NCBI GenBank assembly: GCA_964016885.1
Contig: OZ024744.1
Coordinates: forward strand, 79,670,001-79,734,000
Source: Eledone cirrhosa
Taxonomy: Eukaryota
Length of the DNA stretch: 64,000 nucleotides
Direction of reading: 5' to 3'
Shown here: positions 3,258 to 64,000 of the stretch, in pieces
How the letters are laid out: each line of letters starts with the position of its first letter
Position numbering within the stretch: position 1 is the stretch's first letter
Notes under the pieces: model-generated
What the model was told of the DNA's origin: nothing
The model's input: only the letters and a program-made list of their open reading frames with translations
Database searches by the model: none
Translations under genes and position numbers: made by a program

Positions 3258-3375
3258 AACTACTACTAACACCACTACAACTACTATTACTACTGCCTCC
3301 ACAACAGCTACCACCACAACTACTATTACTACTGCCTCCACAACAGCTACCACCACTACTACTACTACTACTACT
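3258..3375. repeat. (ACT)n/(ACC)n trinucleotide repeat with a ~39-bp tandem duplication
   Basis: ctactattactactgcctccacaacagctaccaccac occurs twice, followed by (ACT)n. Confidence 0.85.
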
Positions 3376-17697: not shown

Positions 17698-18229
17698 ATA
17701 TGAATACTTTACAACTAGAGGTTTGTTATCATAGAATTGGGGCAGTTTTGGTTGATTTGATATCAAAAGATTGTGTATTAGTGGTTTGTTTGCATAGTAA
17801 CTGTTGATACAGACTAAGTTTAGAATAGATATACAGTATCTCTGTGTGTTGTAAAAGGTGACTTAAAGGGTTGGTACCAGCAATATCATCTGGCCAGAAA
17901 ACATTGTCTCAAATGATGGAACTCCATAGTGAGTATCATTAAAGCTTATCATGGGAGGCTGCAAGACTAACTCCTGCTTCAGCAAGGAAATTGGCCTTAG
18001 AATGCTTCTTCTTCTTGTTGAACACACACACACACGCGTGCGCACACATACATATATCCACACACATACATATATCCACACACATACATATATCCACACA
18101 CATACATATATCCATACACACATATATATAATATGAAAGTTACTGAATGGTGTCGGATGCTAACCACAATTAAGAAAGGTACTCAATATGTTCATAGAAT
18201 ATAAACATCCTTATTATATATGGAATGTC

Positions 18230-18278
18230 CATTCCTGATGATTTCATATGAATGAAACAGTTCTAGTTCTGTAGAAGT
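18230..18278 (+). ncRNA. Type-I hammerhead ribozyme-like motif in a Penelope-type repeat
   Basis: TTC-CTGATGA-t(TTC atat GAA)t-GAAA-CAG ttctagtt CTG-TA-GAA: intact CUGAUGA/GAAA core, GUA cleavage triplet, short stems I-III. Confidence 0.5.
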
Positions 18279-18451
18279 CATTTCTATATATAATGAATAT
18301 ATATATATACATATTAGGAAGGGCATCCAGCCATAGAATACCAAGCCAAAAACAGAACATATGAGCAATATGTGGTTACCTGTCCTGTCTAGTCTCATAG
18401 CATGACATCCCATCCAATACATGCAAGCTTGGAAAATTGACCTTAAATAGT

Positions 18452-28815: not shown

Positions 28816-28905
28816 TATATAATAGTATTTTAAATATAAAATGATACTTATTATATATAAATATAGTAAAGTAAAAAATATATAATATTTATTTATACAT
28901 AGTAT

Positions 28906-31900
28906 GGGATGGGATGGGTGGTGTAAGTATACTATTAGCTGACAAGTGGGTAGATAAAGTAATCTCAGTGTACAGGGTAAATGCAAGAATCATTAAACTC
29001 AGACTAGTCCTGAATAAGACAATTACCACAATAATATCAGCTTACGCACCCCAATCGGGGCTGCCAGACGAACTTAAGGATAGGTTTTACGAGTCCCTAA
29101 TACACACTACTGCTCTAACAGACGACAAGGACTTCCTAATCATTGCAGGAGATTTTAACGGACACGTAGGTAAACACTGCGACGGCTTCAATAGAGTACA
29201 TGGAGGCCATGGAGTTGGCACAAGGAATGAGGAAGGATTCAGACTTCTAGAATTCTGCGACGCCAATGACATGTCGATATGTAACACAAACTTTAAAAAA
29301 CCCGACAACCACCTGATCACCTATAGATCAGGGGAGCACTCTAGTCAGTTAGATTTTATCCTCATCAGAGGACGTGACAGATGGACGGTCGTAAACACAA
29401 AAGCCTTCCCTAGTGAGGAATGTACATCCCAACATAGCTTAGTTGTCAGCGACCTCACGGTCAGAACTAGACGAGCCCTGAAACAGAGGCCAACCTGGAG
29501 AAGAAAGATCTGGAAGCTGAAAGTCCCCTCAACCAGTAACAGATTTAAAGATATTTTACTCAACGCCTACGACAGTAAAGAAGAACAGATAGAGACATTT
29601 AACGTAGAAGAGAACTGGGAGTTCCTAAAAAATAACTTACTAGAGGCGACGGATGAGGTTTGTGGCTGGAGTAAGACCTCAAGCAGGAGGAGAGTGACTT
29701 GGTGGTGGAACAATAAGGTAGATGAAGCAGTCAAGGCCAAGAGACAGGCATGGAAAGAATGGAAGAACGGGGGGAGCAGGGTACATTACATAGAGACCAA
29801 GAGGGAAGCTAGGCGACAAGTATACTTAGCTAGGAGGGAAGCAGAGGATAGAAAATTCAAGCATGTTTTACAACGTGAGGACCAGAAACAGGAGGTATTC
29901 AAGATTGCGAGGCAGTGTGTCAGAGATAGTTGTGATGTCATTGGAGAGAAGTGTATCCGGAATGATAAAGGTGAGCTTGCCCTCACAAGTGCTGAGAAGA
30001 AAGATGCATGGAAGAGTCATTATGATAGATTACTAAATGAGGAGAATGCATGGGAAGAAGAGACCCTACCCCACGTAGACCCTATAGAGGGACCAGCAGT
30101 ACAAGTCAGCGGCAGCGTAGTAAGTAAGGCAATCAGAGATATGAAGATAGGGAAGGCAACCGGTCCATCGGGTATAGCTGCCGAGATGCTGAAGGCATCT
30201 GGGTCTGTAGGTCACACTATAACCACACGTATCGTTAACCAGGTAATACTAGAGGGGGCCATACCAAAAGATTGGTGCAGTAGCATCATTGTCAACTGCT
30301 ACAAAGGTAAAGGCGATGCACTAGATAGAGGAAACTATAGAGGTATAAAGTTGATGGACCAGGTCATGAAAGTAACAGAAAGAGTTATAGCACAGCTGAT
30401 TAGGGACCGGGTGAATATAGACGAGATGCAATTTGGGTTTGTACCAGGGAAAGGCACCACTGATGCCCTCTTCCTTGTGAGGCAATTACAGGAAAAGTAC
30501 CTAGCTAAAAGTAAGCCACTCTACTTGGCATTTGTCGACCTTGAGAAAGCCTTTGACAGAGTTCCACGTGCTGTAATCTGGTGGGCTCTTAGAAAACTAG
30601 GAGTAGATGAATGGCTTGTGAAAGCGGTACAAGCCATGTATAGGGGAGCAGTCAGCAAAGTTAGGATTGGCAATGAGTATAGCGAGGAATTTAGCGTACA
30701 GGTTGGGGTCCACCAGGGCTCTGTTCTTAGCCCTCTCCTGTTCATCATAGTCCTGCAGGCAATAACGGAGGAGTTTAAGACCGGATGCCCATGGGAACTC
30801 CTGTATGCTGATGACCTCGCACTCATAGCTGAATCTATGGTAGAACTAGAGAATAAATTCCAAACCTGGAAGCAGGGACTAGAGAGAAAGGGCCTCAAAG
30901 TCAACATGACAAAGACTAAGGTCCTTATAAGTAGACGAGAAAACAGAACCCAGATCCCCTCAGGGAAATGGCCTTGCTCAGTATGTAGGAAAGGTGTAGG
31001 TAGAAACTCCATTCTCTGCCCCAAATGCAAACAATGGGTACACAAGAGATGTAGCGGGATCTCAGGAAGCTTAATTAAGAATGTAGGATTCACATGCAGC
31101 AGCTGTGCTGAAACAGCAAGCAAACAGCCACAGGAAATAAGTACCACCAATCTCTGGGAGGGCCCTGTAGAAACAGTAGACAGCTTCTGCTACCTAGGTG
31201 ACCGAATTAGCAATGGAGGTGGGTGCTCAGAAAGTACAATAACTAGGGTAAGAACGGGATGGAAGAAGTTTAGGGAACTACTACCACTGCTAGCTGCAAA
31301 AGGCTTCTCCCTCAGAATGAAAGGCAGACTGTATGATGCGTGTATCCGAACAGCGATGTTGCATGGTAGTGAGACCTGGGCGCTGAAGGTGGAAGACTTA
31401 CGTAGATTAGAGAGAAACGAAGCCTGCATGCTCCGATGGATGTGTAACAGTAATATACGTGAACGACAAAGCATAAAGGAATTGAGAGAGAGACTGAGCA
31501 TAAGAGGAATCAAATGCTGCGTGCAGGAGAGGCGGTTACGCTGGTATGGACATGTGATGCGTATGAAGGATGACAGCTGCATAAAAAGGTGCAGAGCACT
31601 AGAAGTTGATGGAAACCGCGGAGTGGGGAGACCCAAGATGACTTGGGATGAGGTGATAAAAGCCGACCTTACCCAACTACACCTCTCAAAGTCAATGACA
31701 CACGACCGTGACTTCTGGCGTCACGCAGTAATACAGGGTACCCGACCTCCCATGGGTACATGCTGAAGCATATAAACAATATCCCCCCCCCCCCACCGCA
31801 AGGTGGTCGTGGAGGTGCCACGGCAAAAAAGCACCCAGCCCACACTGTAAAGTGGACGTGTAGGCGCCACGAAAAAGCACCCAGCACTCACTGTAAATGA

Positions 31901-34586: not shown

Positions 34587-34701
34587 TATAGAAATGGCTT
34601 CTGCGGGGCTAGAACTATTTCATTTGTATGAAATCATCAGGAATGCCCTGATGATTTCATACAAACAAAACAGTACTAGTCCTGTAGAATCCATTTCTAT
34701 A
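34587..34701. repeat. Palindromic element with two back-to-back degenerate hammerhead cores
   Basis: Arms are reverse complements centred on TCATCAG-gaatgcc-CTGATGA; same family as 18230 and 61763. Confidence 0.7.
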
Positions 34702-34956
34702 TTAAATTTTTTAAGTTTTCACTCTAAAATTGTATTGAGTACCTTGAGTACTTTTAATCACTGTGGTTATCTACATATATATTGCAGAGAGATATATTGC
34801 TTATAAGTAGTTGTTACATCGTAACTTCTTGACTTCTTGAGGATAAGCCAGTATATATTTATATATATATATATATATAAGTATGTACACGTACATACAT
34901 ATATGTATACAGACGTACAGTAGTATGTATATATATATATACATACATGCACACAT

Positions 34957-36627: not shown

Positions 36628-37929
36628 CAGGGTGTGGACGATATTTGTTTGCAATTTTCAACTGCTAATTTTATGCAAATTTTTTTTACTTCCATTGTCA
36701 CTCTTGTCTTCATAAAAACAGTGACTATATTTCCATTATTTATTTTCAGAATAATTGATTATGAATAATTTTGAACCTCCAAGTTTGTGGAAGAGACACG
36801 GAGTTCTTCTTGGAATCCGCGCCGGAAGGACAAATAAGGAAATTTCAGACTTTCTCAGCGTCAGCAGAAGAATGGTGTAAAGGGTCAGAAAGGAATTGGA
36901 AGATTCAGGATTCGACTACGAAGCAACATCAGAGAGGAAAACACATGATCGACGATCTGATGCCTTCAGAACGCCCGAGTTCGTCGCTGAAGTTCAGGAT
37001 ATCATCAACAATGAACCTAGCAAGTTGATGCATGCCATTGCAAGGGAGAAAGGCGTGGATGAAAAGCTCATTAGGTTGGTGGTACATGAAGACATTCGCT
37101 ACGTTTCATACAAGATGAGAAAAGGACAATTTCTGTCAAAGGCGATGCAAGAAAAGCGACTGAAGCACGCAAAGAAGCTGATCAGCAAGTTGAAACACCC
37201 ACTGGAGCCAGACATGCTGTGGTTTTTCTCCGACGAGAAAAACTTCTGCCAAGACCAGAAGATCAACTCCCAGAACAACAGGTGGCTCGCTGTCTCATCC
37301 AAAGACATGCCCAGAGTCATGCAGACAAAGTTTCCAGCGACAACATTGGTCTTAGGTGTCGTCAGCAGTCAAGGTGACGTCATGCCACTTCACTTCTTCC
37401 CCGAGGGCCTCAAGCTGAACACCGATGGCTACATCCGTGTTCTGAGCGAGGTAGTAAAGCCCTGGATCGACCAGGTAGCTGCAGGTAGGCTGTACGTGTG
37501 GCAGCAAGACTCAGCGCCCTGCCATACAAGCTGAAAGACCCAAGCCTGGCTGTCAGAGAACTTCGTCGACCACGCTTCACCTGACATCTGGCCTCCCAGC
37601 TCGCCTGACTGCAACCCCCTCGACTTCTTTGTGTGGGGTACAGTGAAACGAGACACCAACAGATCTAGCTGCAATACGAAAGACAATCTGAAGGCCAGAA
37701 TCACAAGTGCCTTTAGGGGCCTAAGTCGGGGGACAGTGACAAAGGCATGTAGCCATTTCCGAGGCCGCCTTGAGGCCGTCATCAAAGCCAATGGCGGGTT
37801 TATCGAGTGAGATCGAAAGAACAAGTCATGAAGACAAACTGACCCAAGTTTGATAAATATATCTTAAAAAATAAAACTACTATATTTTCCTAGACAGTAA
37901 TCTTGCAAACAGATATCGTCCGCACCCTG
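36628..37929 (+). mobile_element. Full-length Tc1/mariner transposon, DD37D (maT) family
   Basis: TIRs CAGGGTGTGGACGATATTTGTTTGCAA / TTGCAAACAGATATCGTCCGCACCCTG, TA-flanked inside (TA)n; 1302 bp. Confidence 0.93.
36761..37810 (+). pseudogene. DD37D transposase (349 codons) with two in-frame stops
   Basis: Single frame from ATG 36761; stops TAA 36878-36880 and TGA 37532-37534; FSDEK, QQDSAPCH, WPPSSPDCNPLD with 37 residues between the 2nd and 3rd D. Confidence 0.9.
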
Positions 37930-52929: not shown

Positions 52930-53580
52930 AATTTTGAGTACATTTTTGACCGGTCACTTTCCTGGAGGCAAGGTTGTAAAAGAAATTGTCATCCCTTGAA
53001 TCACAAGAATGTTTTGCAAATTTTGAAGGTGCCAGCTTTCGCAGCCATTTGTAGTCTATGAATTAAGGAGCTGCGTTCATTGTTCACAAATCCAAGTTCA
53101 GTTATACTTTGGTCCAAGTGAATTGGTTTATAAGCTGTAGCTCCAATAATAATGGGTATGAAGCTGAAGGTGTATCTTGAAGACTGGATCTGCAAACTCC
53201 TCATCAATGGTCCGTAGATGTCCTCTTTCTCCTGTATTTTTCTGACAAAGTTGGCTTCAAGTCGGCAGCTGATCTCCACAACAGAACACGTTTTCAATGT
53301 GTGGTCCCAAACAACAATATCAGGCCAATTGGGCTTTAATTTGGTGGCAGTTTTTATTTTCAGGTTCCATTAGTATTCTTTTGTTTTTAATTTTGTTTTC
53401 CTTAGTGCATTCTAGATGGTTCTAGCTATCACATCGTGTCTCACAGGGAGGTAATAATGAAACAACATTCTTTCACATTTGGCAATAATGTGGCTAACAT
53501 CTTCGATCTTTGTTTTACATAGCCTACATTTATTGTTGACTGATGGATGTTCTTTTATGTGTAGTAGATATTTGGTAGAG
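52930..53580 (-). mobile_element. R2/R4/NeSL-type non-LTR retrotransposon fragment (CCHC knuckle + restriction-like endonuclease)
   Basis: Minus strand: KCRLCKTKIEDVSHIIAKC...RHDVIA...KPNWPDIVVWD..CSVVEISC...EKEDIYGPL...IPIIIGA. Confidence 0.85.
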
Positions 53581-61574: not shown

Positions 61575-61577
<3 letters not shown>

Positions 61578-61674
61578 GGTGTCCCCCAAAAAATACATAC
61601 ACACTTCAACAGCATTCTAATAAATATTCCCTGTACAGGTAATCAGTGTGTATACGTTTTTGGGGGACACCCTG
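61575..61674. mobile_element. 100-bp Tc1/mariner-type MITE
   Basis: CAGGGTGTCCCCCAAAAA..ATACACACT / AGTGTGTATACGTTTTTGGGGGACACCCTG TIRs next to (TA)n; CAGGGTG termini as in the maT element. Confidence 0.85.
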
Positions 61675-61800
61675 TGTGTGAGTGTATGTGTATATATAAG
61701 TTTATATAGGGTTCAATCGGGGGTAAACACAGTAAGTAAGGTACTCAATACATATTTAATATAGAAATGGCTTCTACATGACTAGAAGTGTTTCATTCGG

Positions 61801-61849
61801 GTTTCCTGATGATTTCTCCCGAATGAAACAGTTCTAGACCTGTAGAAGC
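61801..61849 (+). ncRNA. Type-I hammerhead ribozyme-like motif within palindrome 61763-61856
   Basis: GTTTC-CTGATGA-t(TTC tccc GAA)t-GAAA-CAG ttctagac CTG-TA-GAAGC: 5-bp stem I (one G-U), intact core, GUA site at 61842-61844. Confidence 0.55.
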
Positions 61850-62146
61850 CATTTCTTTCTCTCTCTCTCTATATATATATAGCATCGGAAACGTTCTATT
61901 TCTAAGATAGGATGAAAAAAGTATTACAAATTTATTTATCAAATTTTGATAATTTGCTAAATAAAACTATTTGTCTTTAAGGAAACACTTCATATACATA
62001 TATATATATATACTTAACTAGATGTTTATTGCCGAATAATTGACTTACAGTTGAGAAATCTTCGGAGTTTACGAAGGTTTTTGCTTTTAATCTTTTCTCT
62101 GGAAAGTCGACTGTATTCTGTTTATTCGTTTGTCTGTTGCTTTTAT

Positions 62147-64000
62147 TTAACGCCACGTATATGTAGATAAACGAAAAGCTTCGAAAAATTCATTAATATC
62201 AATCTGTCCATCATTATTAAAGTCCATAGTTCTGCCTAGATTTTCAATATCATTTGCTTGAAAATCTCCAATCTTGGTGTGTCTTAGAAGCATCTTCATT
62301 CCATCCTTGAATTCATTCATGGTAATAGTTCCAGAGTTATCGACATCGAATGTTCGAAATATAGTTTCCAATATCTCTCTGTTATCATATAGGTACATTT
62401 TAGTCAGTGCGGATGAGTTTTCCAGATCCATCATCTTGAAAGTGTTTTCGTAATTCACCATGTTGTTACTGTCCACATCACAGATCCTGCGAATGATCAA
62501 ACGCCATGGCAACTTCACTTTCAACACTTTAGACAAACATTGGCAGAATTCTTCCGTAGTGATTTCCCCCGTTTTACCCGTGTCGAACTCAGCGATAGCT
62601 TCCTTAAAATCTGGTAGTTTCATTCGAATCATCTCCTTTATTTTATTGAATGCAGTAGTTTCCAAAGAGATTATTTGGGTCTTTTATGTTCAATTTTTCT
62701 AATGCAATCTCATTAGTGATATACTCAACGATGCTTAAATTAGTTACGTCGCCAGTATAGACGATGTAAGCACCTTTGTTGCTTCCTCGTTCGTAATAGT
62801 TGGATGCAGAGAAGACGGTTAGCACCTGATTGTTATGTGTGTACTCGAAGCCATTCGGCTTACATTCGTGTGATCTTATCAGAAGTAGAAGATTGTTTTT
62901 CTGCAAAAAACGTCCGGTTACGTCTGGTCCAAAATATTTTCCACTACCCCTATATAGATTATCGACGCAGCCAAAGTTTTTTCATTGGGTCACTCCAAAG
63001 AATATCAAGGAAATGTTCCCAGTTTTCCTTGTCATACGTCTCAACATCTGGCCCCTGGCCGTATCACTGATAGAAATTTGTCTCTTGGAATGTTATTGAT
63101 TTTATCTAAATCTAATACGTTCGATATTCCTCCATGTACAACCAATATTTTATGATCGATCAACGAGCCTAATGGCAGTAATTTAAATAACATATTGAAC
63201 ATCACAAGGAGGTTTTTTGAGAAATTTCTATATCGCTGAGTAACTTCTTTTATAAAACCATACCTTCTATTTAAAACAGGATCTTCATGGTTGCCTCTGT
63301 TTAAAAATACGTGATTAGGAAACACTAAAATACAGTAAAATATAATCATGCACACTTCCATGGACTTGTGTCCTCTGTCGACGATGTCACCGTTGAAAAC
63401 ATAAGGATTAGTTGTTGAAGGAAGATTATTTTTGTGAAATATTGTGAGGAGGTCATCCAAACTGCCATGTAAGTCTCCAATAATAGTCACCTTCTTCGTT
63501 ACTGACGTGGTCACATTATACAGATTCTTTCGAGTTTTTCATTTTCAAAATCATATCCTTCAGTATCTTCGAAACATAAGCAGCATGAATTAATTTTCNN
63601 NNNNNNNNNNNNNNNNNNNNNNNNNNNNNNNNNNNNNNNNNNNNNNNNNNNNNNNNNNNNNNNNNNNNNNNNNNNNNNNNNNNNNNNNNNNNNNNNNNNN
63701 NNNNNNNNNNNNNNNNNNNNNNNNNNNNNNNNNNNNNNNNNNNNNNNNNNNNNNNNNNNNNNNNNNNNNNNNNNNNNNNNNNNNNNNNNNNNNNNNNNGA
63801 AAAAGAGCTTCTTCAGTGGTAGACGAGTATTGAGTGGACAAATTGTAACTCAGATGTTGACTGATTAAATTTATTTATCTTTGTGTCTTGAAATTCTTGA
63901 ATCAATAATTTAAACATCTTACTCAGTCTTAATTGATCTTGTTCGCCGAATATTCAAGCTCTTGAATATATTCCAGGCCACTTCTCTTCGTATTATCAGC
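62147..64000 (-). CDS. PPEF: Ser/Thr protein phosphatase with EF-hands (PPEF/rdgC family), apparently intronless; frameshifted in this assembly; 5' end lies outside the window
   Basis: PPP motifs GDLHG, GDIVDRG, RGNHE, HGG, ILWSDP, RSHE, FSASNYY; EF-hands DVDNSGTITMNE and DFNNDGQIDINE; LIHAAYV helix; beyond the gap a frameshifted RREVAWNIFKS/EY/GEQDQLRL matches the PPEF post-IQ region. Confidence 0.88.
63599..63798. other. Assembly gap (200 N)
   Basis: Run of N inside the PPEF coding region. Confidence 1.

What the first reader, a model, noticed from the sequence alone, without database searches (positions are those of the whole stretch)
61763..61856. Dispersed palindromic repeat carrying type-I hammerhead ribozyme cores (best copy; family also at 18230 and 34587)
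Seen: CTGATGA at 61806, a short hairpin, GAAA-CAG/loop/CTG-TA, and a 5-bp stem I (GTTTC/GAAGC). This is a complete minimal type-I hammerhead with a GUA cleavage site and a palindromic CTAG-containing loop 3. The family occurs three times in 64 kb, each time with a shared aaggtactcaata flank and a full or partial inverted arm. Established: Penelope-like elements and animal non-LTR retrozymes carry minimal type-I hammerheads with palindromic loop 3 that can work as dimers. Inference: this is a high-copy, non-coding, self-cleaving retroelement family, possibly undescribed in this genome. Caveat: the 10.1-11.1 position is U-U rather than G-C, which may lower activity.
Basis: partly seen in the sequence, partly recalled or inferred. 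Interest (0 to 1): 0.75.

Follow-up and report, generated by a model that had tools for sequence, protein, structure and literature searches.

The report
Hammerhead stub of Hydra-type Penelope retrotransposon
This hammerhead-shaped RNA motif is real, but it is the front end of a very abundant protein-coding jumping gene of a known kind, left here as a short mirror-image stub that likely formed when both ends of a DNA break copied the element's RNA back to its predicted start and were joined.

Summary
The motif is confirmed: CUGAUGA at 61806 and GUA at 61842-61844. The family is not non-coding. It is the terminal repeat (pLTR) of a Hydra-clade Penelope-like retrotransposon. Ten fetched genomic copies carry this hammerhead 175 nt before an intact 713-aa RT plus GIY-YIG ORF with the Hydra motifs. 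Three copies of the focal subfamily run into the same ORF start. The 32-nt core pattern has 20,859 exact matches in the genome. The core is invariant across subfamilies and stem I covaries. The U-U pair is usual in Hydra hammerheads. The focal copy is a truncated head-to-head stub: its hairpin is predicted 39 kcal/mol more stable than the ribozyme fold, so it is likely inert. Stubs pair one long arm with one short arm. Their 5' joints stop at the first base of stem I (0 of 54 arms pass it), about 30 nt behind a TATA box, which likely marks the RNA start. No RNA test was possible. This scan has already reported the same reading for other families in this genome. Verdict: new member of a known kind.

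The parts
61699..61856 (.). Whole head-to-head stub insertion: long inverted arm plus short forward arm, between simple repeats
61699..61801 (-). Long arm: element positions about +12 to +128 relative to hammerhead C3. It has the tail, lacks CUGAUGA and has a small deletion in the tail hairpin
   Evidence: 82-85 of 88-90 aligned nt identical to the ORF-linked focal-subfamily and young copies
61800..61856 (+). Short arm: starts at -6 (first base of stem I; 2-nt GG overlap with the long arm) and ends near +50
   Evidence: 53-54 of 57 nt identical to L195, L196, L199
61800..61850 (+). Type-I hammerhead motif; predicted cleavage after A61844; one G-U in stem I where the subfamily has G-C
61691..61698 (.). 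(TA)n left flank, likely target
61857..61881 (.). (TC)n(TA)n right flank
34587..34775 (.). Second stub: short inverted arm with core at 34640 (-) and long forward arm with core at 34648 (+); both cores damaged
18160..18290 (.). Third stub: decayed long inverted arm without core, joined to a short forward arm with core at 18235 (+); stem I broken

Best explanation
The stretch is a truncated head-to-head insertion of the hammerhead-bearing terminal repeat of a protein-coding Hydra-clade Penelope-like retrotransposon, likely made when the element's enzyme cut a TA repeat and copied the front of its RNA from both DNA ends. Shown: the link to a 713-aa RT plus GIY-YIG ORF, the copy number, the TA flanks, two preferred 3' ends (near +55 and +129 from C3), one long and one short arm per stub, and a sharp 5' limit at -6. 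Inferred: the repeat's upstream part is a TATA promoter and the RNA starts at about -6, the first base of stem I. Each cut strand primes at one of two internal start sites, as shown in vitro for Poseidon_Ac. Both cDNAs read through the uncleaved hammerhead, run off the RNA 5' end and are joined by 1-6 nt of microhomology or fold-back. In parent elements the hammerhead would cleave after GUA, probably weakly and with help from protein or a second RNA. The focal copy is predicted to be silent.
For: ORF link: in 10 of 10 fetched copies (picked for a 758-aa open frame from the 150 scored) the hammerhead lies 175 nt before the ATG of a 713-aa ORF, and 8 of 10 have a second same-strand hammerhead 2.5-3.7 kb after the stop. 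Focal subfamily: L195, L196 and L199 match the focal arm at 53-54 of 57 nt and continue into the same ORF start (67-77% aa identity over 114-158 aa). Motifs RWR, DKT, YRDDG, CxCX5C, CxxC and CxH are present and fit the Hydra definition. Counts: 20,859 core matches and 15,745 tail matches, controls 0; 3,684 head-to-head pairs with 12 nt or less between cores. Tail-selected sample, the first 90 of 100 listed: 57 of 90 have an adjacent inverted arm and 57 of 57 of those end short (+68 or less); 79 of 90 long ends run into TA repeats. 0 of 54 arms in three subfamilies pass -6. TATAAATA lies at -36 in 46 of 51 and 16 of 24 contexts, and at -35/-36 in 8 of 10, in three subfamily groups. Core: 0 of 12 positions vary between subfamilies against 25 of 56 downstream; two compensated stem I pairs. 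PMC11167929: a predicted dimeric PLE protein cuts and extends both strands, starts at two internal sites that bound the tail, and does not need hammerhead cleavage.
Against: No RNA evidence for the start site, for expression or for cleavage. Position -6 is also the edge of stem I, so a structural pause or fold-back gives the same limit. The base added after -6 is mostly C (55 of 65 informative rows; 27 of 47; counted by hand), which fits copying of a cap but also templated fold-back. 16 of 90 forward arms extend upstream of -10, so longer templates are also used. 2 of 30 loci (L020, L025) have two long arms, by eye. No complete ORF was found for the focal subfamily itself; intact ORFs belong to a younger sister subfamily. 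Even parent copies are not predicted to favour the ribozyme fold in their own 5' context (2.5-14 kcal/mol above the MFE). Clade membership rests on motifs, not on a tree.
Confidence: 0.78

Rival explanations
1. Same element, but the joint at -6 comes from the ribozyme's stem I: a single cDNA folds back and primes on itself (self-priming, as proposed in PMC3846280), with no RNA 5' end there.
For: -6 is exactly the outer edge of stem I. Several joints contain short fold-back copies, including up to 7 nt of the stem I 3' side. Perfect hairpin joints with 3-4 nt loops are common.
Against: The short arm ends where ordinary non-inverted insertions end (7 of 8 downstream pLTRs), which suggests independent priming. 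The 5' strand of stem I should already be unpaired when the enzyme reaches it (inference). The TATA box keeps a fixed 35-36 nt distance although the sequence in between differs.
Confidence: 0.2
2. A non-coding, self-cleaving retrozyme family that spreads through circular RNA monomers.
For: Most copies carry no ORF; the window and the next 10 kb hold no remnant of the ORF. A 2026 preprint derives retrozymes from pLTRs.
Against: Retrozymes are head-to-tail tandem repeats of 150-450 bp. These copies are dispersed, head-to-head and of variable length, and they are contiguous with the ORF in parent copies. Their ends do not sit at the cleavage site.
Confidence: 0.03
3. A MITE or fold-back DNA transposon that moves as a fixed palindrome.
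For: Long inverted arms and TA flanks.
Against: The arms are unequal in 57 of 57 sampled pairs, and the centres differ from copy to copy, so each palindrome arose anew. Copies grade continuously into the full retroelement.
Confidence: 0.02
4. The limit at stem I is a 3' splice site, as for the D. virilis Penelope intron that ends at helix I.
For: An AG lies just upstream of stem I in all three reference copies.
Against: In the focal subfamily the AG is at -10/-9 but arms still stop at -6. In the young subfamily arms include the AG at -6/-5. No shared upstream exon appears in the joints.
Confidence: 0.05

Closest known systems
Hydra clade of C-terminal EN+ Penelope-like elements (Craig et al. 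2021, PMC8557442), including Hydra-1_Obim of Octopus bimaculoides
   Same: Single RT plus GIY-YIG ORF; RWK-like, DKT, CxCX5C, CxxC and CxH motifs; hammerhead in the pLTR, often with U-U at the base of stem II; (TA)n targets; inverted 5'-truncated copies.
   Different: A different family from Hydra-1_Obim by eye (other hammerhead and other N-terminus; not aligned). Unit of 4.8-6.0 kb against under about 3 kb, because of a 1.6-2.9 kb simple-repeat 3' UTR. Loop 3 of 8 nt against 0-3 nt in the published table. More than 20,000 copies with intact young ORFs.
Poseidon_Ac of Anolis carolinensis (Frangieh et al. 2024, PMC11167929)
   Same: Two preferred 3' ends bounding a tail, AT-rich targets, hammerhead read through in inserted copies.
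   Different: Other clade. There the ORF starts inside the hammerhead and the start sites lie inside the ORF; here both ends lie in the 5' UTR and the tail is about 70 nt.
Adineta vaga Penelope elements with inverted pLTRs (Arkhipova et al. 2013, PMC3846280)
   Same: Head-to-head inverted pLTRs, one-sided tail, palindromic joints, putative TATA box and initiator in the pLTR.
   Different: That paper explains the joints by self-priming on an antisense template; here the joints line up with a predicted sense-strand start.
Metazoan non-LTR retrozymes (PMC7229834)
   Same: Type-I hammerhead; a U-U base of stem II occurs in an axolotl ribozyme that cleaves weakly as a monomer and better as a dimer.
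   Different: Not a head-to-tail short tandem repeat; linked to its own ORF.

Membership tests
Type-I hammerhead ribozyme | CUGANGA, GAA and UH core with three helices | tested here: met
Type-I hammerhead ribozyme | Core conserved above flanks; helices kept by compensatory change | tested here: met
   0 of 12 core against 25 of 56 flank positions vary between five subfamily groups; two stem I pairs covary; stems II and III are nearly invariant and so uninformative
Type-I hammerhead ribozyme | G10.1-C11.1 pair | tested here: not met
   U-U in all subfamilies; also in 14 of 25 published Hydra hammerheads
Type-I hammerhead ribozyme | Match to an Rfam hammerhead model | tested here: not met
   none among 149 matches at E<=5
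Type-I hammerhead ribozyme | Self-cleavage | not testable with these tools
   needs an in vitro assay
Hydra-clade PLE | Single ORF with RT and C-terminal GIY-YIG | tested here: met
   713 aa, YRDDG and IVY..YIGMT; weak Pfam GIY-YIG hit, E 2e-4, just under the cut-off; no Pfam hit for the RT part
Hydra-clade PLE | RWK motif, DKG changed to DKT, CxCX5C linker, CxxC and CxH in the endonuclease | tested here: met
   RWR38, DKT116, CxCX5C566, CxxC666, CxH694 against the definition
Hydra-clade PLE | No CCHH motif in the endonuclease | tested here: inconclusive
   none seen by eye in the protein; not aligned to references
Hydra-clade PLE | Hammerhead in pLTRs and (TA)n insertion | tested here: met
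   (79 of 90)
Hydra-clade PLE | Short element (generally under 3 kb) | tested here: not met
   4.8-6.0 kb in 8 of 8 copies with two hammerheads; a general trait in the paper, not a diagnostic motif
Hydra-clade PLE | Placement in the RT phylogeny | not tested
   reference proteins were seen only as cut text in the paper's supplement and were not used as input
Non-LTR retrozyme | Head-to-tail tandem monomers of 150-450 bp, no ORF of its own | tested here: not met
Non-LTR retrozyme | Circular RNA monomer | not testable with these tools
   needs RNA data

The most novel reading that the evidence does not exclude
The thousands of mirror-image stubs record the transcription start of a Penelope-like element: a TATA promoter starts the RNA at the first base of the hammerhead, and two cDNAs primed from the two ends of one break run off the capped end and are joined. 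This would explain the unexplained inverted structure of Penelope insertions. The same young family also carries about 2 kb of TA/TG simple sequence in its own 3' UTR and so would seed its own target sites and part of the host's microsatellite load.
Probability: 0.55. Interest if true: 0.6.

Novelty: new member of a known kind. Interest (0 to 1): 0.38.

Why it matters
As a ribozyme find it is ordinary: hammerheads in Hydra-clade pLTRs are published, including one from an octopus. Its value is as a test system. How Penelope-like elements build inverted insertions is named as open in PMC8557442. This family offers intact, nearly identical ORFs, three subfamilies with a fixed TATA-to-stem-I distance and thousands of joints that stop at one base, so one 5' RACE and one in vitro run-off assay could decide it. 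The long simple-repeat 3' UTR is unusual for the clade.

Tried and rejected
Rfam scan: no hammerhead family among 149 matches. The repeat finder on the window was swamped by microsatellites. The top 30 Pfam GIY-YIG loci belong to other PLE families; 0 of 30 had this hammerhead within 1.5 kb. Only 1 of 30 endonuclease loci of this family had a downstream hammerhead within 1.5 kb; this was explained by the long 3' UTR. Sequencing runs: no RNA holder listed. Laying contigs of two runs of unknown kind showed cover of both repeat and ORF but cannot show starts, ends or copy number; not used. A peak of 5' truncations at the cleavage site (+39) was looked for and not found (3 of 90 in +30 to +44). 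The cap-templated base test was ambiguous. A sequence look-up in earlier findings gave one unrelated hit. One search kept about 6 misaligned rows among 63 (L175, L188, L189, L240, L263, L272), so its within-subfamily rates are inflated and not used; two of its five groups have only 2 rows; the Fisher p of 0.0025 treats positions as independent and flank alignment gaps may inflate the contrast. The rows were selected on the core pattern, so they speak only to stem I. Literature: three searches listed no paper describing this family or tying PLE inversion joints to a transcription start; the library lacks most subscription papers, and Repbase and Dfam could not be searched.

Full report
Observation. 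All named letters are at the stated places. The focal copy has a 6-bp stem I, CUGAUGA at 61806, U-U at the base of a 3-bp stem II, GAA, a 4-bp stem III with an 8-nt loop, and GUA at 61842-61844. My descriptor found 4 hammerhead cores in the window against 0.13 per shuffled window (30 shuffles); only the focal one is of this family, because the copies at 18235, 34640 and 34648 are damaged. Rfam gave no hammerhead match.

Fold of the focal copy. Alone (61800-61856) the hammerhead fold lies within 1 kcal/mol of the minimum, and two such RNAs are predicted to pair through stem III and its loop (-30.0 for the dimer against -8.6 per monomer). In context (61720-61870) a long hairpin is 38.9 kcal/mol more stable and the three helices have pairing probability near zero. 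The minus strand has no CUGAUGA. This copy is therefore predicted to be inert.

The family. These are lower bounds. Some copies continue from the tail into a reverse transcriptase ORF. A search with its C-terminal part scored 150 of 70,550 candidates, all 94% identical or more; 17 of the 150 lie in a 758-aa open frame (counted by hand). I fetched 10 of those 17. In all 10 the hammerhead lies 175 nt before the ATG of a 713-aa ORF, and 8 have a second hammerhead 2,483-3,652 nt after the stop. These belong to a young sister subfamily. For the focal subfamily, three copies match the focal arm at 53-54 of 57 nt and run into the same ORF start, but none is complete.

Clade. The protein has RWR, DKT, YRDDG, CxCX5C, a GIY-YIG-type pair, CxxC and CxH. 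These fit the Hydra definition in PMC8557442 section 11, as do the (TA)n flanks (79 of 90). In that paper's File S2, 14 of 25 Hydra hammerheads have the same U-U arrangement (counted by hand). The listed octopus family Hydra-1_Obim has a different hammerhead and N-terminus by eye. No tree was built. The unit here is 4.8-6.0 kb; 1,586-2,882 nt of each 3' UTR is TA/TG simple sequence, with five 18-mer anchors in the same order in at least 6 of 8 copies, so this block is part of the element.

Selection on the ribozyme. In copies chosen by the tail alone (63 of 90 span the core by alignment, about 6 of them wrongly), 0 of 12 core positions differ between five subfamily groups, against 25 of 56 downstream positions; the differences fall on N7, loop 2, loop 3 and stem I. 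In 33 core-selected rows two stem I pairs change on both sides (A-U 20 and G-C 8; A-U 14 and C-G 14). These are two events on a tree, not 23 independent ones.

How the palindromes arise. At least 3,684 head-to-head pairs have 12 nt or less between the cores. Of the first 90 tail matches listed on contig C1, 57 have an adjacent inverted arm, all 57 end short (+68 or less), and the forward arm ends at +103 to +132 in 88 of 90. Two of 30 loci have two long arms. 34 of 57 inverted arms and 32 of 90 forward arms begin at -10 to -1; 16 of 90 forward arms reach further upstream. With subfamily-matched references, 0 of 54 arms in pairs with a spacer up to 40 nt pass -6; genome-wide lists show read-through of 2 nt or more in 2 of 100 listed rows (of 1,186) and 3 of 74 rows (counted by hand; these patterns allow only short spacers). 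A TATAAATA box lies 35-36 nt before C3 in three subfamily groups (the young contexts are near-identical and not independent), which puts a start near -6 by the usual 30-nt spacing (recalled). PMC11167929 shows that a PLE protein cuts and extends both strands, starts at two internal sites that bound the tail, and uses uncleaved RNA. Together these suggest two cDNAs primed at about +60 and +129 that run off the RNA start and are joined. The focal stub fits: the short arm starts at -6, the long arm stopped early at about +12, and they share a GG overlap. The start site is inferred; the stem I fold-back rival is not excluded, and the added C after -6 fits both.

What the ribozyme does. Inserted copies cross the cleavage site intact and show no peak of truncation there, so cleavage is not part of making these stubs. 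A role in cutting long read-through transcripts into units is the published hypothesis and is untested here.

Surroundings. The focal stub lies about 290 nt past the stop of an intronless, frameshifted phosphatase plus EF-hand sequence on the minus strand. On that strand it offers only a hairpin, no core. No ORF remnant of the element lies in the window or the next 10 kb.

Earlier findings. I formed the Hydra reading before the first look-up and the TATA reading before the third. Both had already been noted by this scan for other families in this genome; those notes are unchecked and are not counted as support. The tail-hairpin lead came from them.

Papers seen. PMC4209133: parts 1-2 of 4 of the text. 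PMC8557442: abstract, passages, section 11, supplement passages and part 2 of 59. PMC11167929: parts 1-2 of 4. PMC3846280, PMC2377424, PMC13282606, PMC7229834 and bioRxiv 10.64898/2026.07.22.740005: passages only; the preprint's supplements were not seen, and the O. vulgaris repeat library of PMC13282606, which may hold this family, was not seen.

Verdict. A real hammerhead motif in a new, very abundant Hydra-clade family; the focal copy is a likely dead stub. New member of a known kind, interest 0.38.

Noticed in passing
window 62147-63783 (-): Intronless calcineurin-like phosphatase plus EF-hand sequence (PPEF/rdgC-like, name recalled) broken by about three frameshifts and running into an assembly gap; a retrocopy or sequencing errors.
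   Followed up: partly
window 60833 (+), 35123 (-), 22123 (-): Three more hammerhead cores of other families; 60833 has a long stem II and recurs in L036; 22123 has a (UA)n stem III.
   Followed up: partly
L155-L164, 3' UTR: 1.6-2.9 kb of TA/TG simple sequence is part of the element and resembles its own target.
   Followed up: partly
window 61738-61750 (-); L155 about 3260-3282: Small bulged hairpin (ACTC...GAGT) a few bases past the short end, seen by eye in the subfamilies and partly deleted in the focal long arm; a second small hairpin follows the long end. Lead taken from earlier notes; no covariation count made.
   Followed up: partly
window 28875-31766 (+): Uninterrupted 963-aa endonuclease plus RT frame of RTE-LINE type (type recalled, not scanned); a close copy sits next to the Hydra element in L122.
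   Followed up: no
window 61575-61675: TA-flanked MITE-like inverted repeat directly beside the focal stub; a similar one lies beside stubs in L018 and L095.
   Followed up: no
window 36881-37534 and 53001-53369: Fragments that look like a mariner transposase and a restriction-like LINE endonuclease (recalled, not scanned).
   Followed up: no
window 34620-34665: Both arms of the second stub share the same variant in loop 2/stem II, which may point to one template or to conversion between arms.
   Followed up: no
L121:5498-5989: Endonuclease fragment of another Hydra-like family (CxCX5C linker) near a truncated focal-subfamily copy.
   Followed up: no
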